DNA of 19,842 nucleotides, taken from IMG/VR virus record IMGVR_UViG_3300045988_179637, positions 1-19,842 of that record. The stretch is one strand, 5' to 3'. A program made the translations under genes and the position numbers. The stretch's first letter is position 1, and each line of letters opens with the position of its first letter. The notes beneath the pieces were generated by a model. The model searched no databases, was not told where the DNA came from, and worked only from the letters and a program-made list of their open reading frames with translations. This DNA comes from a virus. This document shows, piece after piece, positions 1-19,842 of the stretch.

Positions 1-342
1 CAGGTTGTTCATTTTTTGGTCACAAAAAATGGCCCTTCTTTCCCAGGCCTTACCAACACAAACACACGTAGGGGCTGGTCCAATTACGGACGGGCCCCTT
101 GACGCTGCTCGTTTTTCGTTCAGACAAATCCACTCGTGTACGTCATCATGCATCTATTATTACATACTTCTTCTCTTCTCGCAACACCTAGAACCTTCTA
201 GTTCGTAACGGTTTCATAACATCTTGTGCTGTCCTGTCCAACCCTTGCAACAGCAAACTGTGCAATATGGAATGTTCATTTATTGCCAGGGGTGGGGCGG
301 GGCCGTAGAGTAGGACACGTCGAAAGGAACAAAAAATGAACA
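1..342. repeat. Left inverted terminal repeat (342 bp), the exact reverse complement of 19501-19842
   Basis: Bases 1-342 are the reverse complement of the last 342 bases. This was checked at both ends and in the middle, and the ORF-track entries 5..208(+) and 19635..19838(-) translate identically. Identity stops after ATGAACA at 342. Confidence 0.95.
266..318 (+). promoter_or_regulatory. Sigma70-like promoter inside the left terminal repeat: -35 TTGCCA (283-288), 17-nt G-rich spacer, -10 TAGAGT (306-311), upstream element GGAATGTTCATTT (269-281)
   Basis: Hexamers are close to consensus with 17-bp spacing and sit 25 nt upstream of the AAAGGA ribosome-binding site and ATG at 336. Nearly the same promoter recurs at 920-948. 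Confidence 0.6.
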
Positions 343-797
343 TTCATGCGGCCACCTACGTCGCTCGCGAACTCTCTGACCGTCTCTACGCCGCCGGCTT
401 CCGGGGCGTGTGCGACATGGATCGTATTGGGTCTGTCATCAGTGCGTACACTACGTATCATCGTGCCCGTAAGGGGCTCACTGAATACCTGGTTGGTTGC
501 GGCGTGCGCGGTGATTACGCGCCCCGTATCGCGGTCCTGGCGGAGCGGGCTTTCCGTCGTGGCGGTGGTGACTGGGGCGGTGCGGGAGCTTTCGCCACCA
601 TCTTGGTGGCGCTTAATGACGCGTCTGGAATGCTGCGCGACGACCCGTCGCGCGTGCGTTCCTTGACTCACGTGATGGAACAGTATGAGCGGGAGGAACT
701 TGACCGTGAGGGTGTGCGTAAGCGGTTGCGGCGGGGGTCATACTGGCGGGGGCGTCAATGGATTGCCAATGAGGTCATGTTGTATTGGTGCGCGTGA
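336..797 (+). CDS. Early hypothetical protein, paralog 1 of a three-member family (shares CDM(D/P)xI, GGAG(A)F...ML(R/A)xD and W.YW motifs with the next two genes)
   Basis: AAAGGA ribosome-binding site 9 nt upstream. A single gene sits between the promoter in the terminal repeat and a strong terminator. The start codon lies inside the terminal repeat. Confidence 0.7.
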   Translation: MNIHAATYVARELSDRLYAAGFRGVCDMDRIGSVISAYTTYHRARKGLTEYLVGCGVRGDYAPRIAVLAERAFRRGGGDWGGAGAFATILVALNDASGMLRDDPSRVRSLTHVMEQYEREELDREGVRKRLRRGSYWRGRQWIANEVMLYWCA

Positions 798-803
798 CGT
801 GCT

Positions 804-852
804 GAGGGTCCGGTTTCTGCCGGACCCTCTTTCATTCTTTTCATTCTTTTCC
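804..852 (+). terminator. Rho-independent terminator: stem GAGGGTCCGG / CCGGACCCTC, loop TTTCTG, then a T-rich tract TTTCATTCTTTTCATTCTTTTCC
   Basis: Perfect 10-bp GC-rich stem followed by a T-rich run, immediately after the stop at 797. Confidence 0.8.
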
Positions 853-892
853 TCTTCCAGATTACCACACTTTCACACGTTGCGCAACTTCA

Positions 893-918
893 AAATGAAC
901 AATCTAGAATGTTCATTT
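893..918. promoter_or_regulatory. 26-bp near-perfect palindrome AAATGAACAATCTAGAATGTTCATTT (two A:A mismatches) abutting the -35; candidate operator
   Basis: Arms AAATGAACA and TGTTCATTT with a TCTAGA core. The same 10-bp half-site (AATGTTCATT / AATGAACATT) flanks the promoter in the terminal repeat at 271-280 and 335-344. Confidence 0.55.
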
Positions 919-919
919 C

Positions 920-948
920 TTGCCACGGGCTGGCGGGGTCCCTACTGT
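920..948 (+). promoter_or_regulatory. Sigma70-like promoter P2: -35 TTGCCA (920-925), 17-nt spacer, -10 TACTGT (943-948)
   Basis: Same -35 hexamer, the same 17-nt G-rich spacer pattern (GGGnTGGnGGGGnCC) and the same upstream TGTTCATTT element as the promoter in the terminal repeat. It sits 40 nt before the ATG at 989. Confidence 0.6.
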
Positions 949-988
949 AGATGCAGGGCCACAAGGAAGGGCCAGAAAGGACACAACA

Positions 989-1390
989 ATGATCTACACA
1001 AGCGCAGCACTCGCCTACCTGCACGAGAATCCCTGCGACATGCCTGACATTGCCCAGGTCCGGGGGGATGTCGCGTGGCTGAAAGCTGGGGAAGGCTGGG
1101 CCGAGGTATGGCGGGACACCGAGCTTGCCTACCGGGACACCGCCCGCGACTACGGCACGGCCGAAGGGATCTGTGCAGCAATCGCAGAACTCGGCCCCGG
1201 ACTCCGGGGGACGGCCGCCCACCTGCTGGCGGGCGACATCCTCAAGGATGAGCCGATTCCTGAGGACCTTCCCGCCGTGGCAGGGACCGAGACCGCTGAG
1301 GGACTCGCAGCGCGAGTCTGGCTGTACTGGGCAGAGAATGACGGCTGTGATGGCCGTGACGTGTGTGAGGGTGTGGGGGTGCTGCGATGA
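989..1390 (+). CDS. Early hypothetical protein, paralog 2 (133 aa)
   Basis: ATG at 989 with an AAAGGA ribosome-binding site about 8 nt upstream, downstream of P2. The N-terminal part of the 920 ORF runs through the promoter and is rejected. Shares AYR...LLAGDIL...PIP...ARVWLYW...GC with the next gene. Confidence 0.65.
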   Translation: MIYTSAALAYLHENPCDMPDIAQVRGDVAWLKAGEGWAEVWRDTELAYRDTARDYGTAEGICAAIAELGPGLRGTAAHLLAGDILKDEPIPEDLPAVAGTETAEGLAARVWLYWAENDGCDGRDVCEGVGVLR

Positions 1391-1800
1391 GGTACGCGAG
1401 TAGCGCCGTTGCGTTCAACTCCCTGTTCTACCACTTGCCTTCCCTCACCTGTCCCCAGGGGGTTGCGCGTCTGCCGCAGGGCAGGAAGTGGCGGAGGCTC
1501 TACAGAGGGATCCTGTTCGCGTATCGCACGGCGGTGGCCGGTGGCGCAGGGTTCGAGGCCGCGCTTGCTGCGGCTGTTGACGCTGCGCAAAATCGTTTGT
1601 TCATTCCGGCCATGCTGGCCGGTGACGTGTTGCGTCAGCTGCCGTTCCCGTATGCGGATGAGCCGGTGTACATGCCACCGTGCCCGTCAGATATCGCACG
1701 AGGGGTCTGGCGGTACTGGGATGCGCATCCCTATGGGTGCGGGTCCGTTCCCCTGTACGAACAAGAGATTTTGATCGAGCCTTACTGGCTCAAGAAGTGA
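1387..1800 (+). CDS. Early hypothetical protein, paralog 3 (137 aa)
   Basis: ATGA overlap with the previous gene suggests translational coupling. Motifs AYR...MLAGDVL...PFP...ARGVWRYW...GCG align with paralog 2 and with GGAGAF...MLRDDP...W.YW in paralog 1. Confidence 0.65.
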   Translation: MRYASSAVAFNSLFYHLPSLTCPQGVARLPQGRKWRRLYRGILFAYRTAVAGGAGFEAALAAAVDAAQNRLFIPAMLAGDVLRQLPFPYADEPVYMPPCPSDIARGVWRYWDAHPYGCGSVPLYEQEILIEPYWLKK

Positions 1801-1813
1801 AAGGTTTTTTCGA

Positions 1814-2338
1814 ATGTTGGTTTCAATGTCATTGATCGATCGTCTCTCCGCAGTCATGTCCCCGGAAGAGCTCCCGCAACTCGGCGCTCTGATCGAGTGG
1901 GCCGAGGACCACGGCTACTACCCGGAGGACCTGATCGCCCCCGTCGTGGGCGACGATGCCCGTTGGGTGTATGATGCCTACCTGTCTCTCAGTGACGTGC
2001 GGGCCAGCCAGGCCAGCGCGGCCGGGCTGACCCTCGATGTCCGGGTGCGCATTCTTGAGGCCGTGGCAGCGGTGCCCGCCGCCATGGGGGTCTGTGCTCG
2101 CTGGGATGCTGCGGTGGCGGCAGCTGAGGGTCTCCCGTGCGCGCCGTGGGCGGCGGTGGCGGATGTCGCCATGCTTTTCGGTTGGCTGCCATCCCGTGAC
2201 CTGCTGTGCTATGTGATGCTTCACGCGTCTGATGGGGCTCGGCGTGCGGCCCGGACCGTGATGCTGCTGAGAGACGGCGTGGATCCCATGGATGCATGGG
2301 AAGGCAGCTACGGGGCTCTGTCTGTGGGGGGTGAGTGA
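1814..2338 (+). CDS. Early hypothetical protein (174 aa), Ala-rich
   Basis: AAAGG ribosome-binding site 9 nt upstream. Same strand and operon as the paralogs. No recognisable domain. Confidence 0.5.
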   Translation: MLVSMSLIDRLSAVMSPEELPQLGALIEWAEDHGYYPEDLIAPVVGDDARWVYDAYLSLSDVRASQASAAGLTLDVRVRILEAVAAVPAAMGVCARWDAAVAAAEGLPCAPWAAVADVAMLFGWLPSRDLLCYVMLHASDGARRAARTVMLLRDGVDPMDAWEGSYGALSVGGE

Positions 2339-2339
2339 C

Positions 2340-2876
2340 GTGACGGCTCGTCTTTGGCCGTCCGAGACGGCATCCGACATGATGCTGGCAATCATCCTGG
2401 CATACCGGCACAAGATGCCGCTGTGCCATGGCGACACGGTCCAGTTCGACGGACCGTGCGCGTCCCGGACGCGCATGGGTCGCGACAAAATTCTTGCCCG
2501 CCTGGTTGCGGATGGGATGGTTGTTCAGCGTCGGGAGGGTCGGCGTGTGCTGTCGCTTCCGACTGCGGCGGGACTGTCGGCGTGGCGTATGCCGATGCCT
2601 GATGACCGGTCCGTGTACCGCCTGCTCCGGGAGGGAGGAACTGACGTTTCCAGCGCCGCCAATGCCGTTCTGGGCCGTTCGCTCCGCAGGTTGTGGCGGC
2701 GGCACTACGCCATTGGCGCCGAGGCTCTGCGGGACCTCGAGCCGCTGGGGTGTGTGCGTCAGGATCGGTACACGGCCCGTCTGTGGGCCGCTCGCGATAC
2801 CGCCATGGTTGAGGCCGTGCTTGACGTGCTGCCTGGTTTGCACCCGTATCGGGTGCGAAAGTTGCTGATCCCGTAG
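2340..2876 (+). CDS. Putative winged-helix (MarR/ArsR-like) DNA-binding protein; start taken as GTG 2340 (alternative ATG 2382)
   Basis: Segment DKILARLVADGMVVQRREGRRVLSLPTAAGLSAW looks like a recognition helix plus wing. The GTG lies 1 nt after the previous stop with GGGGGG 8 nt upstream. The ATG at 2292 overlaps the previous gene by 47 nt, has no ribosome-binding site, and is rejected. Confidence 0.45.
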   Translation: MTARLWPSETASDMMLAIILAYRHKMPLCHGDTVQFDGPCASRTRMGRDKILARLVADGMVVQRREGRRVLSLPTAAGLSAWRMPMPDDRSVYRLLREGGTDVSSAANAVLGRSLRRLWRRHYAIGAEALRDLEPLGCVRQDRYTARLWAARDTAMVEAVLDVLPGLHPYRVRKLLIP

Positions 2877-2890
2877 CTCACGGGATGGGA

Positions 2891-2930
2891 AGGGGCCGTG
2901 CTGTTGGCACGGCCCCTTTCTTCGTTTCAC
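2891..2930 (+). terminator. Rho-independent terminator: stem AGGGGCCGTGC / GCACGGCCCCT, loop TGTTG, then CTTTCTTCGTTTCAC
   Basis: 11-bp GC stem plus a T-rich tail 15 nt after the stop at 2876. Ends the rightward early operon. Confidence 0.75.
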
Positions 2931-3112
2931 CTTGCGTTTACAGGTCGTGATTATCAAGTCACGGCCTGTTTCAGTTGCATGCGGGTGCTTCCTGAGACGT
3001 CATGGGCAGCGCTGTGCGCGTTTCTGACGGCCTTGCAGGCTGTCCGGGTACTAGGGTATGTGGGCAGGGTTTGAGGCTCTCTGAGGGGCGTGTAGCGCTT
3101 ACGGGTTTGCCG

Positions 3113-3143
3113 GTGGGGGAGTGGTGTGACCACTCCCCCACCA
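3113..3143. other. Perfect 13-bp-stem hairpin GGTGGGGGAGTGG-TGTGA-CCACTCCCCCACC in the non-coding convergence zone, followed by C-rich direct repeats (ACTCCCC, CTCCCCTACC x2, through about 3208)
   Basis: Read directly from the sequence. No T-tract follows on either strand, so it is not a classical terminator. Confidence 0.6.
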
Positions 3144-3315
3144 CTCCCCTATCGTGTGCGTAGCAGCATTTTGATTATTCACCCCTCCCCTACCGCTCCC
3201 CTACCGGTCGAATCGGCTTTGACTAGGGGTTTTGCTGTTGCCGGGTGTTGTGTGTCTCCCCTCTTGGTGGAATATTTATGATTTTCACCACTCGTTATTG
3301 AGAATCATTCTCATT

Positions 3316-3340
3316 TTCTGAAAAGGGCCCCTCGCCGGCC
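3316..3340 (-). terminator. Weak candidate terminator for the leftward late operon: GGGCC-GGCGAGG-GGCCC + TTTT on the minus strand, about 140 nt after the ATPase stop
   Basis: 5-bp GC stem with a 7-nt loop and a TTTT run. The surrounding sequence (3290-3480) is AT-rich. Confidence 0.3.
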
Positions 3341-3479
3341 CGTCAGCGAAAAAGTTGAACTCAAAAATTTTTGAAAATCTCCGCAACCAACAACAATCCC
3401 AGAATCATGAAACAAGCAGACAGATCAAGAATCACAAGACCCCCCTCCCATGATTTTTCCGACACCGTTTCCCCATCCA

Positions 3480-4499
3480 TCATCTTCCGGAGAACAATTG
3501 CACGAACCCATTCCGCACCGCGGCATTGTCAAAGGTCATACGCCCCTTCGAGAAAGCCGTACGAGCCATCTGCAACAACGGATTGTTCAACGGCACGAGA
3601 TACACACCACCACCGGCAAGCTCTGCATCGGTGGTGAAACACTTACCCCTCGAGGGACGCTTCCTGGTGCCGTGAAAATGGAGACGTTGTTCATTGTCGA
3701 ACCACTTCCACAAAGAAGTCTCATGCCCCTTGTGCGTTACAGTGAACTCGTATTGCGCGTCCTGCGGTTTCGGAGCAACCATCATCTTGTGATTGTCCCG
3801 GAACGTGTTCCCGACAGCGTATTCCTCGTATTCGGTGCCGGCAATGAACTGCCCGAACCTGGTCCGGCGAACGGATTGCTCGAACGCTGTCACACGCGGG
3901 AAGTGAAACACCGCGAAGCCGCGCTTCCGGCGCGACCATTCACGGTCAGCATCGGCCTCCAGGGCGACCATGTAAGGGTTCTCGATGCGCACGGCGTTGG
4001 CGAGGAAGAACACCCGCACTCTGTCATTCCACCTGTCCACGGTGTTGTAGAAGTTGTTGAACACCGAGAACTCGTCCGGCAAATACCGGACACACCCCTT
4101 TTCAATGATGAACTCATCGAACAGAATGGTGTCGAAGTCGTCAAACACCATCGACTTCATTTGCTGCGCTGTCGACAACGCGACGGCCATGCCGATCTGT
4201 ATCCACTTTGAGCCCTTTACTGGTTCGGGATCGTCGCAGATCTCGAAGTGATGCCCGCGAACGCGGAAAGCGTAATCCGGGAACTCCCGCCCGACGTCGA
4301 CGAACATGTTCTGAATCGTCCGCAGCTCATTTTTGTAGCGCCGCAGATAGATGAACTTCCGTCCGTTGACGATGAAGTCCTCGATACAAAGTTTCTTGGC
4401 ACCGTAGGTTTTGCCAATGCCACGGCCACCAACAACGAAGTTGTATGTGCCGTTCTTCTCCAACAAAGGATCGAAGTCGTAGTACTCGATATTGCTCAT
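3480..4499 (-). CDS. DNA encapsidation (packaging) ATPase, phi29 gp16 homolog
   Basis: Motifs NFVVGGRGIGKTY (Walker A), FIYLRRYKNEL, REFPD, ILFDEFIIEKG (Walker B), RVRVFFLANAV, RRTRFGQFIAGTEYEEY and RMTFDNAAVRN align block by block with phi29 gp16. ATGA overlap with the upstream gene. Confidence 0.95.
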   Translation of the reverse strand: MSNIEYYDFDPLLEKNGTYNFVVGGRGIGKTYGAKKLCIEDFIVNGRKFIYLRRYKNELRTIQNMFVDVGREFPDYAFRVRGHHFEICDDPEPVKGSKWIQIGMAVALSTAQQMKSMVFDDFDTILFDEFIIEKGCVRYLPDEFSVFNNFYNTVDRWNDRVRVFFLANAVRIENPYMVALEADADREWSRRKRGFAVFHFPRVTAFEQSVRRTRFGQFIAGTEYEEYAVGNTFRDNHKMMVAPKPQDAQYEFTVTHKGHETSLWKWFDNEQRLHFHGTRKRPSRGKCFTTDAELAGGGVYLVPLNNPLLQMARTAFSKGRMTFDNAAVRNGFVQLFSGR

Positions 4500-5854
4500 G
4501 GCTTCAATCCTAGACTTTGCAGCCAGGGAATGCAGTTCTTGGAGGAGTAGATGTTACCCGGGGTGATTCCTTTCGGGTAATACTCGAAGTGGCAGTGAAC
4601 TCCGAATGCCCGTCCGGTCTGCCCCATCAACGCAACCGTCTGCCCCGCGGTCACCCTCTGCCCCTTCGAGACGAGAACCTTCTGCGCGTGGCAGTACATG
4701 TACGACTCCCCAGTGGCGGCCTGTATCGCAACGTGGTTCCCGGCCCAGGCTTTCGCCGTGTCGCCCACGACCGTGCCGTCGGTGACGGCCAGCAAAGGGG
4801 TGCCGGCCGCCCCTGCGAAGTCCGTGCCCGTATGGTATCGGGCCCAGGCGCCAGTTTCCCCGAAGCCTGCGGAGATCCTGTACTTCCCTTTCTCCACGGG
4901 GAGGCTGTACTTCCCGGACGGTGGCGGGGCGGGTGGGGTTCCGGGATCGTCATCATCGCCTCCGCCGGGCACCTTGCCGTGTGATGCCTGGCCGGCGGGC
5001 ACCCACATGCCCGGCTGGGTGGGTGTCATCATCTGCTTGTTTCCGGATGTCCAGTGCACCACCATGGATCCGTTGTGCAGCTGAATCAGCCGGATGTCGT
5101 CGGAGCCCCCGTTGTCGCCGTCGATCGGTGGCGGTGGCGGTGGCTGTGGGTCGCTGCCCCCTCCGTCGCCTCCGGGGGTTCCGGGTAGGGTGTCGCCGGC
5201 GTAGGGATCGACTTCCACACCGCCCCGCATGCCGGGTTTCAGCGTGTACCCCGGGAATGGTGGACTCGTGTCCCACTTGTCGATCGCGGCCTTCGCCTTC
5301 GTGTAACGGCTCCAATATTTCGTGAAGCTGCCGCCGACGGAGCGAAGTGCGTTCATGTAGGTGTCGAGGGACGGGTTCGATCCGGCGATCCTGACGGCCT
5401 TGTTCGTCCCAACCGGCCACTGGTGATTGGAGACGATGAACATGATCGTCGTCTTCGGAACGACATCGGGGTCGATGCCCTTCCGCTTGGCGAGGGCTAG
5501 GTAGTCGCCCATGTCCTGGTTTGCGGTGACGTGCTGCACCCACTTCGTCAGCGGCCGCACCATCACGGCCCGGATGGGTGCGAGTTCTTCCTTGCGCAGC
5601 CACAGCGAGTTCCACGCCTCCGAGGAGGGGCCGTTGGTTTCGAGCATGGAGCGGAGCCGGCCGGGCAGCATGGCGTACCCGGCCGGATCGTACTTCCGGA
5701 TCCTCGAGATCAACCTGCCCGCCCGCACCCCATACCACTGCATGATGCCGATCGTGATCGGGTCGCCGGTGTAGATGTCCGTATAGGACAGGTTGGATTC
5801 CACCAGCCCGAGGACGTGGATGGTGACGTTGAGTTCCGGAGTTCCGAATGCCAT
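4496..5854 (-). CDS. Tail-associated peptidoglycan hydrolase, phi29 gp13-like: N-terminal lysozyme-like domain, Pro/Gly/Asp-rich linker, C-terminal peptidase M23 (LytM)
   Basis: C-terminal motifs YHTGTDFAG...GNHVAI...GVHCHFE (HxxxD / HxH) are an M23 signature. Position between the gp12-like and gp16-like genes matches phi29 gp13. The start at ATG 5854 is 1 nt after the upstream TGA. The longer ORF reaching 5941 would overlap gp12 by 86 nt and is rejected. Confidence 0.8.
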   Translation of the reverse strand: MAFGTPELNVTIHVLGLVESNLSYTDIYTGDPITIGIMQWYGVRAGRLISRIRKYDPAGYAMLPGRLRSMLETNGPSSEAWNSLWLRKEELAPIRAVMVRPLTKWVQHVTANQDMGDYLALAKRKGIDPDVVPKTTIMFIVSNHQWPVGTNKAVRIAGSNPSLDTYMNALRSVGGSFTKYWSRYTKAKAAIDKWDTSPPFPGYTLKPGMRGGVEVDPYAGDTLPGTPGGDGGGSDPQPPPPPPIDGDNGGSDDIRLIQLHNGSMVVHWTSGNKQMMTPTQPGMWVPAGQASHGKVPGGGDDDDPGTPPAPPPSGKYSLPVEKGKYRISAGFGETGAWARYHTGTDFAGAAGTPLLAVTDGTVVGDTAKAWAGNHVAIQAATGESYMYCHAQKVLVSKGQRVTAGQTVALMGQTGRAFGVHCHFEYYPKGITPGNIYSSKNCIPWLQSLGLKP

Positions 5855-5855
5855 G

Positions 5856-11871: not shown

Positions 11872-11872
11872 G

Positions 11873-14343: not shown

Positions 14344-15999
14344 CTATACCTTCAATTCGTAGGGCCGGGGCACGAGGCACACCCCACCGGGCACACGTTT
14401 CGACGCAAGTTTGCCCTCAAAGATCCTGCCGGGTTCGAAATCGCCAATGGTCAACTCGGACGCGACACTGCGAGGCATGCCGGCAATGTGAACTTCATTG
14501 ACGCCATCCACACGTTTGTCGATGTAGCACTTGGCACGCCAGTACAGGGCGTAAGTGAATGAGTACTCGTGTTTCCACAACCCCAGCTCCGAGGGATGTT
14601 CCATCAGTTCTCCGGTATTGGGGCGAAGTACGTGCACGGAGTCGGTGTCGGCATAAACGAAGTCATCCCCGAACGCCTGCGCGGCGGTGATGGTCTTCCG
14701 GCGGGCGTAGGCGGTGACGAACACCGAAACCGGTGTGTAGACGGGATCCTTGACCTCAGGTACACATTCGACGAGACGTATCACCCCGTTTTCGAGAATG
14801 GGGCGTTTGGAGCGAACCTCGGGGCGGGTGGCGAACTTGCCGTACAGGGAGTTGAGGTGCAGTTTCGCCAACAAACGGGCACCGCCCGTAGCAGCGGCCT
14901 TTATGGCCATGTAGTGGTCGATGTAAGCGTTGAAAAGACCAGTGCGGGTTTGAAAGTAGAAGCCTCCGTGCCATTCGATGATGTTCAAGTCGTAATGCTG
15001 TTGCCAGAGTTCCAAGTCAATGTTGGTGACAGTCAATGTCACGGGTTCCTCAATGACGGTGAGATATTCAGTGGCGGCAAAACGAGAATTGTTCTTGATC
15101 TGAATACAGGGCAACATACCCGGCCGAATGGTGGCGGTCAGGCTGATCTCAACAATGTATGTGCGCCACGGATCCGGACGCCCCTCGAAACGAATGGGCT
15201 GACCATATGGCAATTGCTGGGTGCGCATCGCCCACGGATAAATGGAGTTGTTGTCATACACATCCCCATTGCAGACAACAATTCGAGCATACTTCTCATT
15301 GAGGAATGTCCAGCCGCCACGATAAGCGCCGCGTATGAAGTCATCAACATCACGTTCCAGCACAGGTAGGGACACTTCCCAGTCCTTCGTGAGACGTTTG
15401 AAGGCTGCCAGGGAGTCGGAGCCGATCGTGAGTTTCGTATTACCCTCAGCGAGAGTATGTGCAACACACTTGGCACCAATGATGATATCGTGATCGAGGT
15501 AACGCCACTCCTCCACGGTCGGTTCGTACCCCACAGATCGGTCGGCGTCGTAGTCGATCTCGAGTTTCCGTTCCGCCAGCCCGTAAGTCACAGCCAGCGC
15601 CGAGATCGACAAGGGCAGTTTCTTCAACGAGTCAGCGAACACAACCTTTTGCCCATTGGGGAACAGGCAGGTGATCGTGTAATACTGGCCCATCTCCGAT
15701 ATGCACGTGGAGAACTGGCACTCGCGCAACAAGGAATCCTCATTCCACACCCAGCCACTACCCAGCAGATAGGACAAAATGAAGTCCCCGTCGAAAGCCA
15801 AATTGTGGAAGTAAATGCGATTGTAGGGCCCGTCCTGCACCCAATCGAGAAACGATTCAACGTCAAGGCCATGAACCACCTGTTCGCGTGTGACATCAGG
15901 TGTGACGGGCGCGATGCCCCAGCACCACACCCGGCAGTCATCGACCTTGTTGACAGTTTCGAAGTCAGCGAACCCCGCTACCTCATTCCTCGTCCCCAT
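14344..15999 (-). CDS. Protein-primed family-B DNA polymerase (phi29 gp2-like)
   Basis: Exo I DFETVNK (residues 12-18, as in phi29), Exo II YFHNLAFDGDFIL, Exo III YLDHDIIIG, motif A DNNSIYP, motif B KLHLNSLYGKF (phi29 has KLMLNSLYGKF), motif C YADTDSVH, KxY region KCYIDKRVDG. Confidence 0.97.
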   Translation of the reverse strand: MGTRNEVAGFADFETVNKVDDCRVWCWGIAPVTPDVTREQVVHGLDVESFLDWVQDGPYNRIYFHNLAFDGDFILSYLLGSGWVWNEDSLLRECQFSTCISEMGQYYTITCLFPNGQKVVFADSLKKLPLSISALAVTYGLAERKLEIDYDADRSVGYEPTVEEWRYLDHDIIIGAKCVAHTLAEGNTKLTIGSDSLAAFKRLTKDWEVSLPVLERDVDDFIRGAYRGGWTFLNEKYARIVVCNGDVYDNNSIYPWAMRTQQLPYGQPIRFEGRPDPWRTYIVEISLTATIRPGMLPCIQIKNNSRFAATEYLTVIEEPVTLTVTNIDLELWQQHYDLNIIEWHGGFYFQTRTGLFNAYIDHYMAIKAAATGGARLLAKLHLNSLYGKFATRPEVRSKRPILENGVIRLVECVPEVKDPVYTPVSVFVTAYARRKTITAAQAFGDDFVYADTDSVHVLRPNTGELMEHPSELGLWKHEYSFTYALYWRAKCYIDKRVDGVNEVHIAGMPRSVASELTIGDFEPGRIFEGKLASKRVPGGVCLVPRPYELKV

Positions 16000-17077
16000 G
16001 TTTCTTCTCTAGTTCCTTTTGGTACTTCACGGTACGCCGTTTCCGTTCACGCGCCCTCTGCGCACCCGCCTTCCGGATTCGTTTCTTGGCATCCTCATCC
16101 GAAGAAGCCTGGATCAGCGGTTTCTTGTGCACATACCCAGCAGCGGCGGAACGTGCCCTGGCCTCCGCGCGGCGCATGTTGTACCGGTCCTGCTCGGAAT
16201 ACTCAGGCTTGTACCATGACGGAGGCTCATTGAACAGCGGCTTGCGACGCCGCTTGTACAAGTCGCCCGGGGTGTAGCCGTCGGCCCAGTCGACGGCCCG
16301 TTTGATCTCTTCCTGTTCCCACCACAGCGCATCCTCGCGGTTCGCACGCTCGGTGGCCTCGGTCTGCGGGTCCAGAATGATCTGTGTCTCAATGTAGGCC
16401 AGCCGAAGGTTGCTGGAGAAGTTGCGGTTGAACAGCCACAGCATCTCGACCTGGGCACCAGTGAGTTGTTGCACCTTCGGCACCAGTGCCGGATAGACAA
16501 GCCCAACCATTTTCTCCATCGAGGCCCTCGCGGAAGCGATTCGTTTCTCCTTGTGCTCCCGGGTAAACACATTCTCATTCAACTCGGTGAGGCGCCGCAG
16601 AGAGTTCTCGTTGGTAATCTGGTGGGGCATGCGATTCACCTTCACCAGATCATCGGGTGAGGACTTCGGCACCCTTTCAGGATGAACGGATGGAATGACG
16701 ATTCTTCGCCAGTCACCGTAGCTGGAGTCAATGTTGGGGGAAGTGGCTCGTTCAATCTTCTCGAGTTTCCGCTTCACCCCAGCATTACGTTTCTTCTCGG
16801 ACTTCTTATACTTCCGCCACTGCTCAGAAGTGACGAACTTGCCGTTCCCGAGCATGACGAACGAGTTCTTTCGGGAATTGAATGATTCGAAGCGTTGAAT
16901 CGCCGCATCCAATTGCTTGTTGGTGTAACCGGCCATTTTCTTCTTGTCCAGCGGAGGGGCTTCAACAGCGGTGTGGCCTTCACGTTTCCAGTACTGAACC
17001 TTGCGCTTGGCCCTGTGGTGCAGCTTCGCGAGATACTCGCGCTTCTCCCGGAGATTCATGATGAAACGGGCCCCCAC
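15983..17077 (-). CDS. Putative terminal protein (priming protein); alternative start ATG 17059
   Basis: Highly basic and charged 364-aa protein immediately upstream of the protein-primed polymerase, overlapping it by 17 nt. Gene order terminal protein then polymerase matches phi29 and Cp-1. No sequence alignment was attempted, so the call rests on position and composition. Confidence 0.55.
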   Translation of the reverse strand: MGARFIMNLREKREYLAKLHHRAKRKVQYWKREGHTAVEAPPLDKKKMAGYTNKQLDAAIQRFESFNSRKNSFVMLGNGKFVTSEQWRKYKKSEKKRNAGVKRKLEKIERATSPNIDSSYGDWRRIVIPSVHPERVPKSSPDDLVKVNRMPHQITNENSLRRLTELNENVFTREHKEKRIASARASMEKMVGLVYPALVPKVQQLTGAQVEMLWLFNRNFSSNLRLAYIETQIILDPQTEATERANREDALWWEQEEIKRAVDWADGYTPGDLYKRRRKPLFNEPPSWYKPEYSEQDRYNMRRAEARARSAAAGYVHKKPLIQASSDEDAKKRIRKAGAQRARERKRRTVKYQKELEKKHGDEE

Positions 17078-17097
17078 CCGTGAAGGGTGAGGGCCCG
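17068..17097. other. 12-bp-stem hairpin GGGCCCCCACCC-GTGAA-GGGTGAGGGCCC (one mismatch) that covers the candidate terminal-protein start region
   Basis: Read directly from the sequence. On the minus strand it is followed by GTTTCATCATG. Confidence 0.5.
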
Positions 17098-17120
17098 CCC
17101 TGTTCCCCTTCTGCGCGGCA

Positions 17121-17618
17121 TCAATCAGCGATCTTGAGGGTCAGGAACGACCTGGCCCCACGCCCCTTCACCTTCGCAGCGACAACCCGGATCGGCTCTT
17201 CCCAGGTAGAGGGATGGCCGGCGAGGCCGATGAGCTGCTTCAGATCACTCATGACCACCTCCGACATGGTCGCGTACGACTTCCCTTCAACGTCGTCGAC
17301 GAGCACAAGGCGAACGCCGGTGCGGGTCTCGAAGTGACCGGGGCGGGTTTCGGCCTGGAAATCAACCACGGTCGCCACGTAGTGGCGCAGGTTGATGACG
17401 GTGCCGATGTTCTCCTCGAGCGGCTCGGCATCGGAGTTCACCTTGTAGAGCCTCACGGCGTTGGCGGGATTGAGGTCGATGCTGGTGGCGACCCCGCTGG
17501 TGGGGTTCGCCAAGGCGCGGATGGAGTCGAATGCGAACTGGCGCGACCCTGCGGGGACGAGTGCCGGGTCGGTGACGATCTCGGCGTCGACGGTAGCGAT
17601 GGAAGTGGACTCAGTCAT
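17121..17618 (-). CDS. Hypothetical early protein (165 aa); possible DNA-binding replication accessory protein by position only
   Basis: Clean ORF on the operon strand, just upstream of the terminal protein. No motif recognised. Confidence 0.5.
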   Translation of the reverse strand: MTESTSIATVDAEIVTDPALVPAGSRQFAFDSIRALANPTSGVATSIDLNPANAVRLYKVNSDAEPLEENIGTVINLRHYVATVVDFQAETRPGHFETRTGVRLVLVDDVEGKSYATMSEVVMSDLKQLIGLAGHPSTWEEPIRVVAAKVKGRGARSFLTLKIAD

Positions 17619-17920
17619 GACAGTTTTCCTTTCAGCAACGTGACTGTTTTTTCTTCTTTGAGGAAGTCCGGTACGGCTTCCTCCCCCAGCATCCCAATCA
17701 AGTAGCTGGGTGTGACGGTGAAGTCCTCACCCCGCGGGCCGATGCCTCGGAGGGTGGTGACGTAGCCGTCGGTTTCGGCGATGATCGTGACGTGCCCGAT
17801 CATCGTCAGTCTTGTGGTGATCATACCCGACAGGGTCTCGGTGACTTGGTAGGCGGCACGCCATCCGGCTGCTCTCACGGCTTCCGCCCAGGCATGAGGT
17901 TCAAACGGCTCGAAGTGCAT
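17615..17920 (-). CDS. Hypothetical early protein (101 aa)
   Basis: Start ATG 17920 with a GGGAG ribosome-binding site 7 nt upstream. The Ser/Gly/Cys-rich N-terminal part of the 143-aa ORF looks like an out-of-frame artefact. ATGA overlap with the downstream gene at 17615. Confidence 0.45.
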   Translation of the reverse strand: MHFEPFEPHAWAEAVRAAGWRAAYQVTETLSGMITTRLTMIGHVTIIAETDGYVTTLRGIGPRGEDFTVTPSYLIGMLGEEAVPDFLKEEKTVTLLKGKLS

Positions 17921-18137
17921 CACGCAACTCCCGTCTCCCATGACCGGTGATGACGAGCCGGTCACCATGGAAGGCGATCCAGTTCTGCTCGATGGCGCGC
18001 AGCAGGATCCTGCGGCGCACACCTGCTTTGCCGATGTGGTACTCACCGGGACCCCAGCCGAGCCTGACCGTATGATGCCAAGTCATGGAACCGAACTTTT
18101 CGAGCCGGGACAGCACCTCGATGATATAATCACGCAT
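17901..18137 (-). CDS. Small putative winged-helix DNA-binding protein (78 aa)
   Basis: MRDYIIEVLSRLEKFGSMTWHHTV...RRRILLRAIEQNWIAFHGDRLVITGHGRREL resembles helix-turn-helix plus a beta-hairpin wing. Codon usage in this frame is gene-like. The start is 2 nt after the upstream stop. Confidence 0.4.
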   Translation of the reverse strand: MRDYIIEVLSRLEKFGSMTWHHTVRLGWGPGEYHIGKAGVRRRILLRAIEQNWIAFHGDRLVITGHGRRELRDALRAV

Positions 18138-18699
18138 CACCGTCAACCCCCCGATTGAAGGCCTCCAGGAACTTGGCCAGTTCAATGACCTCTTCAGGGG
18201 TGGCGCCCATGGATGCCAGATTGGCAAGCGAATCGTGTTCCACGCTGTGGGTGGCCGGCATGATCGGGAATTCACAGTCGTGGATCAGGCGCCACAGGTA
18301 GCCGATTTCTGCCGGATTGAACCTCCAGGACCGGCTGAACACCGACTCCAGGTAGAATGTGGCGCACTCATCGAAGAACGGCACATCGAGGTTGAGGAAG
18401 TCCTTGACGCCGTACACCAAGTTCAGATGAGCATCAGGGTCGAGGGTTTTGCGGGACAGCAGGAACTTCACAGGGTCCTGTTCATACCACAGTTCCACGA
18501 TGTAATCCCTGTCGAACAGGAACTCATGAGGGCAGGTGATGAGATAGTTCTCGAACTCAGCTCTTCCGAGCTGTCCGGCAGCTCGTTCGAGATTCTGGGG
18601 ATCGTCGCTTTTCTTGGCGATGACATGTTTGAACATGTCTGTTGCGAACTTGATCACTTTGTTTTTGATGTCACTCATTTTCTTCATTCCTTTCTTCAT
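18130..18699 (-). CDS. Hypothetical early protein (189 aa; alternative start 18678 giving 182 aa); somewhat lower GC than the late genes
   Basis: Long clean ORF on the operon strand with an AAGAAAGGAA ribosome-binding site. No recognisable domain. Confidence 0.55.
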   Translation of the reverse strand: MKKGMKKMSDIKNKVIKFATDMFKHVIAKKSDDPQNLERAAGQLGRAEFENYLITCPHEFLFDRDYIVELWYEQDPVKFLLSRKTLDPDAHLNLVYGVKDFLNLDVPFFDECATFYLESVFSRSWRFNPAEIGYLWRLIHDCEFPIMPATHSVEHDSLANLASMGATPEEVIELAKFLEAFNRGVDGDA

Positions 18700-18769
18700 T
18701 CTTGCCGGCGAAACAGTCCGCCATCAATTTAATGTATGACCTGATCATGGCCACACAATCCCCCCTTCC

Positions 18770-19507
18770 TCACCAAACGAAAGGCGAGCACTCATACAAT
18801 TCATCAACCGCGTTGCCCAGTCCTTTCCGTTCAGCATCGGCATACCCCTTTTCGACAAACCACTCCCACCATGCATTCATGAGAGTTTCCACATACTTCA
18901 ACTGCGCATGGACACCAAGATTACCGGTCCATCCGGGCGGAAAAAGCATGACGACATCCGCAAGAGCGAGAACCGTGTCCAGGCTGAAGGACGCCCCAAC
19001 GAGTGCCCGGACATGAAAACCAGGATCCAGAAGTTGCGTGTACCAGGCTCTGATCGCCGCGAAGGATGGCACAGTCTCCAACGGATGGCTGTAACAGGCG
19101 GAAGTGATGTCATCCACGAAACGTTCAGCCTCCAGAAGGCGGAGCCCCTCGTAGCCGACAGAGACGAAATCCGTGTGAAGCTGCTGAAAACCACCGTAAC
19201 GCCTGAAAGTGACAACCGATTCCCGGCATGCAATGGCGATGTCCTCGGCGTATGGCCAGTCGAGCATGAACCATGCAAGAATGGTGTCCAAACGGGGACT
19301 CTTCTCCCATGCGGCTCTGATCGTACAGGCAACTGAAAAGGCCAGTCCTGGTTCGGCATTGTCGTCGATCAAAAGGTTGGTGAGGCTGTCGGTGCCCTCA
19401 CGGCAGGCTCGCAAAATTCCTTCCATGTTGACCCACCCGTCACAGTGTGTGAAGTCCAGCAGCGTGAAGATCTTGCGTTGTACTGCGAGTTCCACCAGGT
19501 TGTTCAT
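18770..19507 (-). CDS. Hypothetical early protein (245 aa); start codon ATGAACA lies inside the right terminal repeat
   Basis: Driven by the inward promoter copy in the right terminal repeat. AAAGGA ribosome-binding site inside the repeat. No recognisable domain. Confidence 0.6.
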   Translation of the reverse strand: MNNLVELAVQRKIFTLLDFTHCDGWVNMEGILRACREGTDSLTNLLIDDNAEPGLAFSVACTIRAAWEKSPRLDTILAWFMLDWPYAEDIAIACRESVVTFRRYGGFQQLHTDFVSVGYEGLRLLEAERFVDDITSACYSHPLETVPSFAAIRAWYTQLLDPGFHVRALVGASFSLDTVLALADVVMLFPPGWTGNLGVHAQLKYVETLMNAWWEWFVEKGYADAERKGLGNAVDELYECSPFVW

Positions 19508-19842
19508 TTTTTGTTCCTTTCGACGTGTCCTACTCTACGGCCCCGCCCCACCCCTGGCAATAAATGAACATTCCATATTGCACAGTTTGCTGTTGCAAGG
19601 GTTGGACAGGACAGCACAAGATGTTATGAAACCGTTACGAACTAGAAGGTTCTAGGTGTTGCGAGAAGAGAAGAAGTATGTAATAATAGATGCATGATGA
19701 CGTACACGAGTGGATTTGTCTGAACGAAAAACGAGCAGCGTCAAGGGGCCCGTCCGTAATTGGACCAGCCCCTACGTGTGTTTGTGTTGGTAAGGCCTGG
19801 GAAAGAAGGGCCATTTTTTGTGACCAAAAAATGAACAACCTG
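19501..19842. repeat. Right inverted terminal repeat (342 bp)
   Basis: Reverse complement of 1-342. Long terminal repeats are typical of protein-primed linear genomes. Confidence 0.95.
19525..19577 (-). promoter_or_regulatory. Mirror copy in the right terminal repeat of the promoter (-35 TTGCCA, -10 TAGAGT on the minus strand), driving the 245-aa gene
   Basis: Identical sequence to 266-318 by terminal-repeat symmetry. Confidence 0.6.

What the first reader, a model, noticed from the sequence alone, without database searches (positions are those of the whole stretch)
1..19842. Complete high-GC phi29/Cp-1-like protein-primed podophage genome with unusually long (342 bp) terminal repeats
The window begins and ends with perfect inverted repeats. 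It carries the full phi29-type core gene set, with every structural and replication gene on one strand, which resembles the Streptococcus phage Cp-1 layout more than phi29 itself. GC is about 60%, far above the low-GC Firmicutes hosts of the described members of this group, so the host is probably an actinobacterium (an inference). phi29 has 6-bp repeats and Cp-1 has 236-bp repeats, so 342 bp is long for this group.
Basis: partly seen in the sequence, partly recalled or inferred. Interest (0 to 1): 0.75.

Follow-up and report, generated by a model that had tools for sequence, protein, structure and literature searches.

The report
Uncultivated phi29-like phage genome, Av-1 relative
This is a complete or nearly complete genome of a small phi29-type phage that copies its linear DNA from protein-capped ends; it is a new uncultivated relative of Actinomyces phage Av-1, but its high GC content and 342-bp terminal repeats are not exceptional for this group.

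Summary
The window starts and ends with a perfect 342-bp inverted repeat, GC is 58.6%, and the full phi29-type gene set lies on one strand.

- High GC is not unusual: many actinobacterial phi29-like phages are deposited, and a 2024 review lists 2,115 relatives with GC up to 65.9%.
- 342 bp is not unusually long: I measured 347 bp in pneumococcal phage Cp-7.
- The closest isolate is Actinomyces phage Av-1 (DNAP 49% identical, same gene order), not Cp-1 (35%).

About 85%-identical genomes occur in many metagenomes, and some are already in GenBank as unnamed virus MAGs. Their contigs break exactly at the inner repeat boundary or stop 13–43 nt from the window's ends. That supports a real repeat and real physical ends.

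An actinobacterial host is supported. The lysin's M23 domain points weakly to Propionibacteriaceae.

Extras:
- Each repeat carries a promoter, ribosome-binding site and start codon for an inward-facing early gene.
- The 9-mer TGTTCATTT marks the termini and the early promoters.
- A VldE-type endolysin with two holin-like genes sits between the capsid and tail-knob genes.
- No packaging RNA was found.

Verdict: new member of a known kind, modest interest.

The parts
1..342 (.). Left inverted terminal repeat; presumed replication origin plus an early promoter
   Evidence: 100% complementary to 19501-19842. The homologous ITR is 78-88% identical in L025 and L005.
19501..19842 (.). Right inverted terminal repeat
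   Evidence: Relatives' contigs break at its inner boundary.
283..311 (+). Promoter-like site P1 (TTGCCA-17-TAGAGT) inside the ITR, mirrored at 19532-19560 (-). It is followed by an RBS (GAAAGGA) and the ATG at 336, and by the mirrored ATG at 19507.
   Evidence: The -10 box and the flanking TGTTCATTT are conserved in L005, L025, L111 and L113. Function is inferred.
6..14 (+). TGTTCATTT motif at the terminus. Other copies: 273-281(+), 334-342(-), 893-901(-), 910-918(+), and the mirrored right-ITR copies 19501-19509, 19562-19570 and 19829-19837.
   Evidence: 8 exact copies against 0.10 expected; all lie in the ITRs or at the P2 region.
336..797 (+). gL1, left-end early ORF (153 aa, unknown function). 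Its first 7 nt lie inside the ITR.
   Evidence: Third-codon-position excess of substitutions. 44% identical homologue in L025 and L026. No Pfam or PHROG hit.
804..829 (+). Terminator-like hairpin after gL1
   Evidence: 11-bp stem with 8 GC pairs, then a T-rich tail.
920..948 (+). Second promoter-like site P2 (TTGCCA-17-TACTGT), preceded by the palindrome AAATGAACAATCTAGAATGTTCATTT (893-918)
   Evidence: Region 884-950 is 75% identical to ITR 247-313 (D2); sequence read.
989..1390 (+). gL2 (133 aa, unknown function)
   Evidence: Start revised to the ATG at 989, which has an RBS. A 133-aa homologue is called in L025. It is a paralogue of gL3 at about 30% identity.
1387..1800 (+). gL3 (137 aa, unknown function)
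   Evidence: 69% identical in L025 and L026; codon-position pattern.
1814..2338 (+). gL4 (174 aa, unknown function)
   Evidence: 80-87% identical in L013 and L025. Substitutions by codon position are 10/10/41.
2292..2876 (+). gL5 (194 aa, unknown function)
   Evidence: 82-88% identical and intact in L013, L025 and L026. The competing antisense 204-aa call has stop codons in the window.
2923..3360 (.). Conserved non-coding region between the convergent gene blocks. It holds five GGGGAGNGG repeats (3116-3201) and a 15-bp hairpin (3113-3148). It is one candidate site for a packaging RNA.
   Evidence: Conserved in relatives. Fold z-scores are -3.1 and -3.7. 0 of 51 pairs covary. All five repeats fall in this region.
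3361..3483 (-). 40-aa single-TM ORF overlapping the ATPase stop codon; a holin-like membrane protein
   Evidence: The same 40-aa gene is called in L025, L026, L111, L112 and L113.
3480..4499 (-). gp16-type DNA encapsidation ATPase
   Evidence: PF05894 E=2.2e-60; phrog_2150 E=5e-75.
4496..5860 (-). Tail-associated lysin (454 aa by the relatives' gene calls). The N-terminal part resembles Av-1 gp14; the C-terminal part is an M23 peptidase domain.
   Evidence: PF01551 E=1.2e-23. The N-terminus is 32% identical to Av-1 'antireceptor' and 30% to the Voltaire endopeptidase. P0001 gives the 454-aa length.
5856..7571 (-). Pre-neck appendage / tailspike with a pectate-lyase fold
   Evidence: PF12708 E=3.7e-16; several tail and tailspike PHROGs.
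7571..8278 (-). Lower collar (gp11-like)
   Evidence: phrog_3225 E=8e-21 and phrog_5472 E=8e-13.
8271..9197 (-). Connector / upper collar (gp10-like; 308 aa by the relatives' gene calls)
   Evidence: PF05352 E=2.5e-32; gene calls.
9194..11386 (-). Tail knob (gp9-like)
   Evidence: phrog_2248 E=1.4e-69; PF20934 E=1.4e-10.
11403..11871 (-). Two small membrane proteins that are holin candidates: 78 aa (11403-11639) and 79 aa (11632-11871)
   Evidence: Hydrophobic TM-like segments. Weak Phage_holin_5_2 hit, E=1.3e-3. 78-79-aa genes are called at this position in relatives.
11873..12532 (-). VldE/MT3-like LAS zinc peptidase; probable endolysin
   Evidence: H59-x6-D66 and H139-x-H141 are invariant. 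PDB profile hit to 9flh, E=0.009. The AF2 model (pLDDT 74) matches VldE 9flm/9flh with probability 1.00 and TM 0.69-0.72 on the target. VldE function comes from PMC11667670.
12520..13905 (-). Major capsid protein (phi29 gp8 type)
   Evidence: PF25622 E=1.3e-90.
13918..14196 (-). 92-aa acidic protein upstream of the capsid gene. Scaffolding protein is inferred from its position only.
   Evidence: A 92-aa gene is called at this position in L025, L026, L030 and L111-L114. No significant family hit.
14344..15999 (-). Protein-primed family-B DNA polymerase
   Evidence: PF03175 E=4e-57; phrog_1907 E=2e-131. All Exo and Pol motifs are present and the TPR1/TPR2 regions align.
15983..17077 (-). Terminal protein
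   Evidence: Lies immediately upstream of the DNAP. Homologous to the annotated TPs of PineapplePizza (33% over 179 aa, E=2e-16) and Thatch (E=6e-10) and to Av-1 TP (E=2e-8). It also matches the gene at the same position upstream of the DNAP in Voltaire (annotated 'putative terminal protein') and Mendel (annotated hypothetical).
17121..17618 (-). phi29-type SSB
   Evidence: phrog_6243 E=1.2e-14; PF17427 E=4e-6.
17615..19507 (-). Right-end early ORFs of unknown function: 18770-19507, 18130-18699 and 17615-18046. The first starts inside the ITR.
   Evidence: ORF list and GC3 analysis. No family hits. Equivalent genes are called in L030, L111 and L113.

Best explanation
The window is the complete or near-complete linear dsDNA genome of an uncultivated, lytic, phi29-type podophage. 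It belongs to the actinobacterial branch of that group, and its closest isolate is Actinomyces phage Av-1.

Inferred mechanism:
- A terminal protein (15983-17077) is covalently attached to each 5' end.
- The family-B polymerase (14344-15999, with TPR1/TPR2) uses it as a primer and replicates by strand displacement from origins in the identical 342-bp ITRs, assisted by a phi29-type SSB.
- Each ITR also holds an inward-facing promoter, an RBS and the first 7 nt of an early gene. The same signals therefore drive early transcription from both ends.
- The right-end unit runs through the replication genes into the late genes on the same strand.
- DNA is packaged by a gp16-type ATPase through a gp10-type connector, presumably with a packaging RNA that I did not identify.
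- Lysis uses a VldE-type zinc endopeptidase with small membrane proteins, and a tail-borne M23 lysin acts at entry.

The host is probably an actinobacterium, possibly a member of Propionibacteriaceae.
For: Shown here:
- Perfect 342-bp ITR.
- Strong family matches for the ATPase, capsid, connector, lower collar, tail knob, appendage, M23 lysin, DNAP and SSB.
- DNAP motifs ExoI-III, A, B, C and KxY are present, and the TPR1/TPR2 regions align with phi29, Cp-1 and Av-1.
- The TP is homologous to annotated TPs.
- Gene order matches Av-1 and the Curtobacterium, Microbacterium, Arthrobacter and Glutamicibacter phages.
- Best DNAP hits: Av-1 49%, then other actinobacteriophages at 41-45%, with Rhizobium phage RHph_N3_8 at 46% the one non-actinobacterial exception.
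- Related genomes (about 85% nt identity) from at least 10 other samples have contigs of 19.35-19.95 kb.
- Their contigs break at the same inner ITR boundary or stop 13-43 nt from the window's ends.
- The ITR promoter, RBS and ATG are conserved in relatives.
- The endolysin assignment rests.
- Host clue: the closest cellular homologues of the M23 domain (40-54%) are almost all Propionibacteriaceae or unclassified Actinomycetota MAGs, and other taxa are at or below 40%. MT3/VldE homologues occur mainly in Actinobacteria (PMC11667670).

Inferred from established phi29 biology: covalent TP linkage, the sliding-back initiation step, early and late timing, and the need for a pRNA.
Against: - No packaging RNA was detected. 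This is uninformative, because the Rfam search also finds nothing in Av-1 or Cp-1.
- The assembled terminus (5'-CAGGTTG) lacks the 2-3 identical terminal nucleotides that phi29-like phages use for sliding-back (PMC6266182). Cp-1, PineapplePizza, Thatch and Voltaire have such a run, and Av-1 has a TGTGT-type repeat. A few terminal nucleotides may therefore be missing, or initiation may differ.
- Linearity and protein-capped ends cannot be proven without reads or wet-lab work.
- The host call rests on protein similarity only. The second-best DNAP hit belongs to a phage deposited as a Rhizobium phage, a host the review calls questionable.
- The scan patterns used were derived from the closest hits, which biases the ranking toward them.
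- No virion, plaque or host data exist.
Confidence: 0.9

Rival explanations
1. The 342-bp terminal inverted repeat is an assembly artefact, for example a chimeric inverted duplication or a mis-resolved circular genome, and the true molecule has short repeats or none.
For: The window is a single metagenomic contig (JGI, 19,842 bp) and no reads are available. The repeat is suspiciously perfect. The outermost 21 nt are a 20/21 inverted copy of the sequence at the inner boundary of the right ITR (I6).
Against: - Independent assemblies of about 85%-identical relatives show the expected repeat-collapse signature at the same inner boundary. Two k141 contigs start exactly 141 nt inside it, one starts right after it, and one starts 54 nt inside it.
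- L005 carries the homologous ITR next to the right-end genes, and L025 carries it next to the left-end genes.
- No contig extends beyond the window's ends.
- ITRs of 101-347 bp are normal in Av-1, Voltaire, Thatch, PineapplePizza, Cp-1 and Cp-7.
Confidence: 0.04
2. The host is an Actinomyces species, as for Av-1, rather than a member of Propionibacteriaceae.
For: [quoted passage not shown] Av-1-like contigs have been reported from saliva metagenomes (bioRxiv 10.1101/633727).
Against: 49% DNAP identity is far too distant to transfer a host genus. No Actinomyces genome appeared among the 80 best cellular M23 matches, which were dominated by Propionibacteriaceae. The pattern-based scan could, however, have missed Actinomyces homologues.
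Confidence: 0.25
3. The host is not an actinobacterium at all, for example a proteobacterium as claimed for Rhizobium phage RHph_N3_8.
For: RHph_N3_8 is the second-best DNAP hit (46%) and the best tail-knob hit (34%).
Against: The review marks the Rhizobium host as questionable (PMC11476376). All other close relatives infect Actinomycetota. Both peptidoglycan hydrolases have their closest cellular relatives in Actinomycetota.
Confidence: 0.05

Closest known systems
Actinomyces phage Av-1 (genus Dybvigvirus; NC_009643)
   Same: It has the same gene order: early ORFs, SSB, TP, DNAP, capsid, tail knob, connector, lower collar, appendage, lysin and ATPase on one strand, with a short block of opposite-strand ORFs at the far end. 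It is the best DNAP match at 49%. It has a long ITR, 52 bp perfect and about 210 bp at 94% identity. [quoted passage not shown]
   Different: - There is no detectable nucleotide similarity, so the two are not in the same genus.
- Capsid identity is only 32%.
- GC is 58.6% here against 49.5% in Av-1.
- Av-1 has holA/holB/lysA after the ATPase. Here a VldE-type peptidase with two small membrane proteins lies between the capsid and tail-knob genes.
- The opposite-strand arm is about 2.5 kb with 5 ORFs here, against about 1 kb with 4 small ORFs in Av-1.
Streptococcus phages Cp-1 and Cp-7 (Salasmaviridae, Cepunavirus)
   Same: Replication and late genes are co-oriented. ITRs are long: 236 bp in Cp-1 (352 bp at 97.7%) and 347 bp in Cp-7. 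Early promoters lie inside the repeated ends and fire inward at both ends. The Cp-1 record places the PE1 and PE4 transcription starts 351 nt from either end.
   Different: These are low-GC (38%) Firmicutes phages. Protein identity is only 25-35%. Their tail genes are organised differently.
Bacillus phage phi29 (Salasmaviridae, Salasvirus)
   Same: The core machinery is homologous: DNAP 40% identical, capsid 29%, plus the ATPase, connector, tail knob, lower collar, appendage and SSB families.
   Different: phi29 has a 6-bp ITR. Its early replication genes are on the strand opposite the late genes. Its pRNA has been identified, and it has a low-GC host.
Actinobacterial phi29-like phages: Curtobacterium (Thatch, Ayka), Microbacterium cluster GI (PineapplePizza, Curie), Arthrobacter Anjalivirus, Glutamicibacter Voltaire
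   Same: DNAP identity is 41-45% and capsid identity 34-41%. Gene order is the same, including an M23 tail lysin next to the ATPase. GC is 50-60%. ITRs range from 16 to 176 bp (Curie's 90 bp is from PMC11320940).
   Different: They use M15 or amidase endolysins rather than a VldE/MT3-type enzyme. None has the 2.5-kb left arm of ORFs seen here. All are soil, plant or cheese isolates with known hosts.

Membership tests
phi29-like protein-primed podophages (Salasmaviridae and allied unclassified genera) | Family-B DNA polymerase of the protein-primed type, with TPR1 and TPR2 insertions and the 3'-5' exonuclease motifs | tested here: met
   PF03175 E=4e-57. Alignment A1 shows D12/E14, N66/D70, Y167/D171, DxxSIYP, KxxxNSLYG, YADTDS and KxY. 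The regions between motifs A-B and B-C align with phi29 TPR1/TPR2.
phi29-like protein-primed podophages | Terminal protein gene next to the polymerase gene | tested here: met
   The 364-aa ORF directly upstream of the DNAP matches the annotated TPs of PineapplePizza (E=2e-16), Thatch and Av-1 (E=2e-8), and the gene at the same position in Voltaire ('putative terminal protein') and Mendel (annotated hypothetical).
phi29-like protein-primed podophages | Terminal protein covalently attached to the 5' ends of a linear genome | not testable with these tools
   This needs protease-dependent mobility of end fragments, or reads. Indirect support only: independent contigs stop at or near the same ends.
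phi29-like protein-primed podophages | Inverted terminal repeats | tested here: met
   342 bp at 100%. The same inner boundary is seen in relatives.
phi29-like protein-primed podophages | Two or three identical nucleotides at the extreme termini, which allow sliding-back (PMC6266182) | tested here: inconclusive
   The window starts 5'-CAGGTTG with no such reiteration. Cp-1 starts AAA, PineapplePizza AAA, Thatch TTT, Voltaire CCC and Av-1 TGTGT. A few end nucleotides may be missing from the assembly.
phi29-like protein-primed podophages | gp16-type encapsidation ATPase without a small terminase | tested here: met
   PF05894 E=2.2e-60 over the full length. No small-terminase hit among the ORFs scanned.
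phi29-like protein-primed podophages | Packaging RNA (pRNA) | tested here: inconclusive
   No Rfam hit. The same search also finds nothing in Av-1, Cp-1 or Voltaire. Candidate regions show no covariation because the available sequences are too similar.
phi29-like protein-primed podophages | phi29-type capsid, connector, lower collar, tail knob and appendage proteins in a genome of about 16-27 kb | tested here: met
   PF25622 E=1e-90, PF05352 E=2.5e-32, phrog_3225, phrog_2248/PF20934 and PF12708. Genome size is 19.8 kb.
Genus Dybvigvirus (Actinomyces phage Av-1) | About 70% or more nucleotide identity across the genome. This is the ICTV genus convention as I recall it; I did not check it here. 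| tested here: not met
   No megablast hit in 50,697 phage records. No blastn alignment to Av-1. DNAP is only 49% identical at protein level.
VldE/MT3 LAS zinc peptidases (for the 219-aa protein) | LAS fold with H...D...H zinc ligands | tested here: met
   H59, D66 and H141 are invariant (also H139) in 21 homologues. Foldseek matches VldE with probability 1.00 and TM 0.69-0.72 on the target. The sequence profile gives E=0.009. Enzymatic activity was not tested.

The most novel reading that the evidence does not exclude
The long ITR may be a compact control module rather than just a repeat. In this reading it holds:
- an origin;
- an inward early promoter with RBS and start codon;
- an outward transcription unit. 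This runs from a promoter-like site at 184->156, through an invariant hairpin at about 104-70 with a GUAAUU loop, to a terminator-like hairpin plus U6 at about 50-24. It would give a roughly 120-nt RNA in two copies per genome, which could be this lineage's missing packaging RNA.

The 9-mer TGTTCATTT at the termini, at both early promoters and over both terminal start codons could be the site of one phage protein that couples replication initiation with the shut-off of early transcription, as p6 and p4 do in phi29. Separately, this could be the first phi29-type phage of Propionibacteriaceae.
Probability: 0.2. Interest if true: 0.55.

Novelty: new member of a known kind. Interest (0 to 1): 0.3.

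Why it matters
The window adds a genus-level lineage to the actinobacterial branch of phi29-like phages. It comes with at least a dozen related metagenomic genomes, and possibly a host family (Propionibacteriaceae) for which my literature search found no phage of this type. For annotation, it shows that high GC and ITRs of several hundred bp are normal for this group. It also shows how assemblers break such genomes exactly one k-mer inside the repeat. The ITR architecture, the terminal/promoter motif and the VldE-type endolysin are concrete, testable leads, but none changes how the group is understood.

Tried and rejected
- Rfam scan for a pRNA in the window found only two sub-threshold sRNA look-alikes that are terminator-type hairpins. 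The control on Av-1, Cp-1 and Voltaire also found nothing, so the negative result is uninformative.
- RNAalifold on the conserved non-coding region 2923-3360 (4 genomes) gave 0 of 51 covarying pairs. On the ITR outward transcript (3 genomes) it gave 1 of 23. The sequences are too similar to test any structure.
- A 204-aa gene called by gene finders on the relatives, antisense to gL5, was rejected. It has stop codons in the window and a P/R/A-rich composition, whereas gL5 is intact and 82-88% identical.
- A DNAP search of 185,579 bacterial and archaeal genomes for a prophage or contaminant copy found nothing.
- Exact-sequence look-ups of the window's DNAP and of P0079 and P0081, to identify the source sample, found nothing on record. 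The environment of origin is therefore unknown to me.
- An hhalign comparison of the 219-aa family with the M15 endolysin of phage Thatch showed no relationship.
- Pfam and PHROGs gave no hits for any left-arm or right-end early ORF.
- An IMG/VR search with gL4 found no relatives.
- I could not retrieve the Cp-1 genome paper (PMC190243) to check where its pRNA maps.
- I considered a fold-back artefact at the terminus. I rejected it because the sequence upstream of the near-terminal palindrome (10-31) is not the reverse complement of the sequence downstream.

Full report
OBSERVATION

The window begins and ends with a perfect inverted repeat. Arms 1-342 and 19501-19842 are 100% complementary, and an end-versus-end BLAST confirms this. 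Overall GC is 58.6%.

GC3 and ORF analysis together with Pfam and PHROGs scans give one long - strand array from the right end:
- three early ORFs of unknown function (18770-19507, 18130-18699, 17615-18046)
- phi29-type SSB (17121-17618)
- terminal protein (15983-17077)
- family-B DNAP (14344-15999; PF03175 E=4e-57)
- a 92-aa protein (13918-14196)
- major capsid protein (12520-13905; PF25622 E=1e-90)
- a 219-aa protein and two small membrane proteins (11403-12532)
- tail knob (9194-11386)
- connector (8271-9197)
- lower collar (7571-8278)
- pectate-lyase-fold appendage (5856-7571)
- M23 tail lysin (4496-5860)
- gp16-type ATPase (3480-4499; PF05894 E=2e-60)
- a 40-aa membrane ORF (3361-3483)

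Five + strand ORFs (gL1-gL5, 336-2876) converge on this array. The one refinement is that 2.5 kb of unknown genes lie on the other strand, as at the equivalent end of Av-1, Cp-1 and Cp-7.

IS THE REPEAT REAL?

No reads are available, but independent assemblies of related genomes give good indirect evidence. IMG/VR, ENA, Logan and JGI hold many contigs that are about 85% identical at nucleotide level, with DNAP 92-95% identical. These contigs behave as follows:
- Two MEGAHIT k141 contigs from different samples (L111, L113) start exactly 141 nt before the end of 'ATGAACA', which is the window's inner ITR boundary.
- L114 starts immediately after that boundary.
- L018 starts 54 nt inside it.

An assembler that collapses a terminal inverted repeat produces exactly this pattern. 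It shows that relatives have an ITR with the same inner edge.

L005 carries the homologous repeat (88% identical) next to the right-end genes. L025 carries it (78% identical) next to the left-end genes. They stop 13 and 43 nt short of the window's terminus, and nothing extends past it. The window's own contig is recorded in JGI at 19,842 bp, and a 100%-identical protein sits on ENA/Logan contigs whose longest is also 19,842 bp. I could not retrieve those records. I consider an assembly artefact very unlikely.

WHAT IT IS

The DNAP has all the exonuclease motifs (D12/E14, N66/D70, Y167/D171) and polymerase motifs (DxxSIYP, KxxxNSLYG, YADTDS, KxY). The TPR1 and TPR2 regions, which are specific to protein-primed enzymes, align throughout with phi29, Cp-1 and Av-1.

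The ORF just upstream matches the annotated terminal proteins of PineapplePizza (33% over 179 aa, E=2e-16), Thatch and Av-1 (E=2e-8). It also matches the gene at the same position in Voltaire ('putative terminal protein') and Mendel (annotated hypothetical). Gene order is the same as in Av-1 and the actinobacterial phi29-like phages.

There is no nucleotide-level match to any of 50,697 deposited phage genomes. The best DNAP matches at protein level are:
- Av-1, 49%
- Rhizobium phage RHph_N3_8, 46%
- Voltaire and Curtobacterium phages, 45%
- Arthrobacter phages, 43%
- Microbacterium phages, 41-43%
- phi29 group, 40%
- Cp-1, 35%

This is therefore a new genus-level lineage inside a well-known kind. 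It is closest to Av-1, and it is not especially Cp-1-like except in strand layout.

THE TWO CLAIMS OF UNUSUALNESS

High GC. Deposited relatives infect Actinomyces, Arthrobacter, Curtobacterium, Microbacterium, Glutamicibacter and Bifidobacterium, and have GC of 50-60%. A 2024 review found 2,115 phi29-related sequences with GC from 22.8% to 65.9% (PMC11476376). Av-1-like contigs were already noted in saliva metagenomes (bioRxiv 10.1101/633727). Relatives of this very lineage are in GenBank as 'MAG TPA: Caudoviricetes sp.' and 'Podoviridae sp. ctrfz10'.

ITR length. I measured perfect ITRs directly from the records:
- Cp-7, 347 bp
- Cp-1, 236 bp (352 bp at 97.7% identity)
- Voltaire, 176 bp
- Thatch, 131 bp
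- PineapplePizza, 101 bp
- Av-1, 52 bp (about 210 bp at 94% identity)
- Mendel, 16 bp

The literature gives 6-16 bp for Bacillus phages (PMC6266182, PMC9965433), 25-30 bp for Clostridium phages (PMC3362512) and 90 bp for Microbacterium phage Curie (PMC11320940). So 342 bp is near the top of the known range, and it is the longest among the five actinobacterial relatives whose deposited ends show a repeat. It is matched by Cp-7 and is not outside the range.

HOW IT PROBABLY WORKS

From phi29 biology I infer protein-primed, strand-displacement replication from both ends, with the origins in the ITRs.

What the sequence itself shows is that each ITR contains a promoter-like site (TTGCCA-17-TAGAGT, 283-311), an RBS (GAAAGGA) and an ATG at 336. 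The repeat ends 7 nt into the coding sequence. The two terminal genes, gL1 and the 245-aa right-end ORF, therefore share identical expression signals and their first two codons. The -10 box is conserved in four relatives.

Cp-1 is built the same way. Its annotated early transcription starts PE1 and PE4 lie 351 nt from either end, inside its extended repeat. gL1 looks monocistronic, because a strong hairpin terminator follows it at 804-829. A second copy of the promoter (920-948; 884-950 is 75% identical to ITR 247-313) then drives gL2-gL5.

A TERMINAL AND PROMOTER MOTIF

The 9-mer TGTTCATTT occurs 8 times against 0.10 expected, and always in these control regions:
- 5 nt from each terminus
- abutting the -35 box of P1 in both ITRs
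- over both terminal start codons
- as an inverted pair just upstream of P2

It is plausibly the binding site of a phage regulator, or part of the origin. This is inference only.

The outermost 21 nt of the genome are a 20/21 inverted copy of the sequence spanning the right ITR's inner boundary (I6). I cannot explain this.

The terminus (CAGGTTG) lacks the short reiteration used for sliding-back in characterised members (PMC6266182). A few end nucleotides may therefore be missing from the assembly.

LYSIS GENES

The 219-aa protein after the capsid gene gave no hit in my Pfam and PHROGs scans. The precomputed annotations of its homologues list PF26571 (VldE), in most cases only weakly. It has invariant H-x6-D and H-x-H motifs. 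A profile of the family hits PDB entry 9flh across exactly those motifs (E=0.009). An AlphaFold model (pLDDT 74, pTM 0.68) matches the catalytic domain of pneumococcal VldE with Foldseek probability 1.00 and TM 0.69-0.72 on the target.

VldE is a LAS-fold zinc L,D-endopeptidase. Its 'MT3' domain was first noted in the tape measure protein of mycobacteriophage TM4, and its homologues are mainly actinobacterial (PMC11667670). Two small membrane proteins follow the 219-aa gene.

I read this as the lysis cassette. It sits between the capsid and tail-knob genes, whereas in phi29, Cp-1 and Av-1 the lysis genes lie next to gp16. The M23 protein next to the ATPase shares its N-terminal domain with Av-1 gp14 and is probably the tail-borne lysin, like phi29 gp13.

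HOST

All close relatives except one questionable record infect Actinomycetota.

The closest cellular homologues of the M23 domain are from Friedmanniella and a Propionibacteriaceae MAG. In a scan of one genome per species, the roughly 48 best matches (40-54% identity) were almost all Propionibacteriaceae or unclassified Actinomycetota MAGs. The named genera were Tessaracoccus, Friedmanniella, Microlunatus, Pseudopropionibacterium, Auraticoccus, Enemella and Luteococcus. Other lineages scored 40% or less, and no Actinomyces appeared.

The scan patterns were derived from the closest hits, so this is a lead rather than a result. I put an actinobacterial host at about 0.8 and Propionibacteriaceae at about 0.4.

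PACKAGING RNA

None was found. The Rfam search is negative, but it is equally negative on Av-1, Cp-1 and Voltaire.

There are three candidate sites:
- The conserved 440-nt non-coding region 2923-3360. It has fold z-scores of -3.1 and -3.7 and five GGGGAGNGG repeats whose copy number varies between strains.
- An outward transcription unit inside the ITR. It consists of a promoter-like site at 184->156, an invariant hairpin, and a terminator-like hairpin plus U6, giving about 120 nt. Cp-1's record annotates an outward promoter at the same ITR position.
- The gL1-gL2 spacer, 798-988.

Covariation tests were uninformative.

VERDICT

The finding is real and correctly recognised as a phi29-type genome. 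It is a new member of a known kind. The two features offered as surprising are ordinary for the group.

Noticed in passing
window 6-14, 273-281, 334-342, 893-901, 910-918, and the mirrored copies at 19501-19509, 19562-19570 and 19829-19837: The 9-mer TGTTCATTT occurs 8 times against 0.10 expected. Every copy is at a terminus, next to the -35 box of an early promoter-like site, or over the start codon of a terminal gene. It may be a shared operator or origin motif.
   Followed up: partly
window 1-21 versus 19496-19516: The outermost 21 nt of the genome are a 20/21 inverted copy of the RBS-ATG-AAC-AAC-CTG segment of the right-end gene. The match extends 5 nt beyond the ITR's inner boundary. I have no explanation.
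   Followed up: partly
window 1-10 and 19833-19842: The termini read 5'-CAGGTTG and lack the 2-3 identical end nucleotides typical of phi29-like phages (AAA, TTT, CCC or a TGTGT-type repeat in relatives). The assembly may lack a few terminal bases, or the priming register may differ.
   Followed up: partly
window 11403-12532 (-): A VldE/MT3-type LAS zinc peptidase (219 aa) and two small membrane proteins form a probable lysis cassette between the capsid and tail-knob genes. In phi29, Cp-1 and Av-1 the lysis genes lie next to the ATPase.
   Followed up: yes
window 3113-3201; L013, L025, L026, L111: GGGGAGNGG units occur 5 times, all inside the conserved non-coding region. Their copy number varies between related genomes (2 to 5 in one run), and the last unit forms a 15-bp hairpin. 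The run is G-rich on the late-gene strand.
   Followed up: partly
window 24-184 (- strand), mirrored at the right end: The ITR contains an outward-facing promoter-like site (TTGCGA-17-TG-AATAAT). It is followed by a hairpin that is invariant in relatives (loop GUAAUU) and by a terminator-like hairpin plus U6. This could encode an RNA of about 120 nt in two copies. Cp-1's record annotates an outward promoter at the same ITR position.
   Followed up: partly
window 989-1800 (+): gL2 and gL3 are diverged tandem paralogues, about 30% identical at protein level.
   Followed up: partly
L025 12859-13473 and L026 12859-13473 (equivalent to window ~2376-2990, - strand): Automatic gene calls on the relatives place a 204-aa P/R/A-rich ORF antisense to gL5. 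It has stop codons in the window and is probably spurious.
   Followed up: yes
L001 (Av-1), L009 (Cp-1), L003 (Voltaire): The Rfam search at E<=1 finds no pRNA in Av-1 (which has an annotated pRNA at 16295-16402), Cp-1 or Voltaire. Rfam is therefore not a usable test for pRNA outside the Bacillus phages.
   Followed up: yes
L004 (Rhizobium phage RHph_N3_8): A phage deposited with a Rhizobium host, as a circular record with no ITR, sits inside an otherwise actinobacterial clade. It is the second-best DNAP hit (46%) and the best tail-knob hit (34%). The review PMC11476376 calls the host questionable.
   Followed up: no
L111, L113, L114, L018 starts: Contigs of related genomes begin exactly k nucleotides (141 or 54) inside the ITR's inner boundary, or right at it. 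This is a useful diagnostic for hidden ITRs in metagenomic assemblies.
   Followed up: yes
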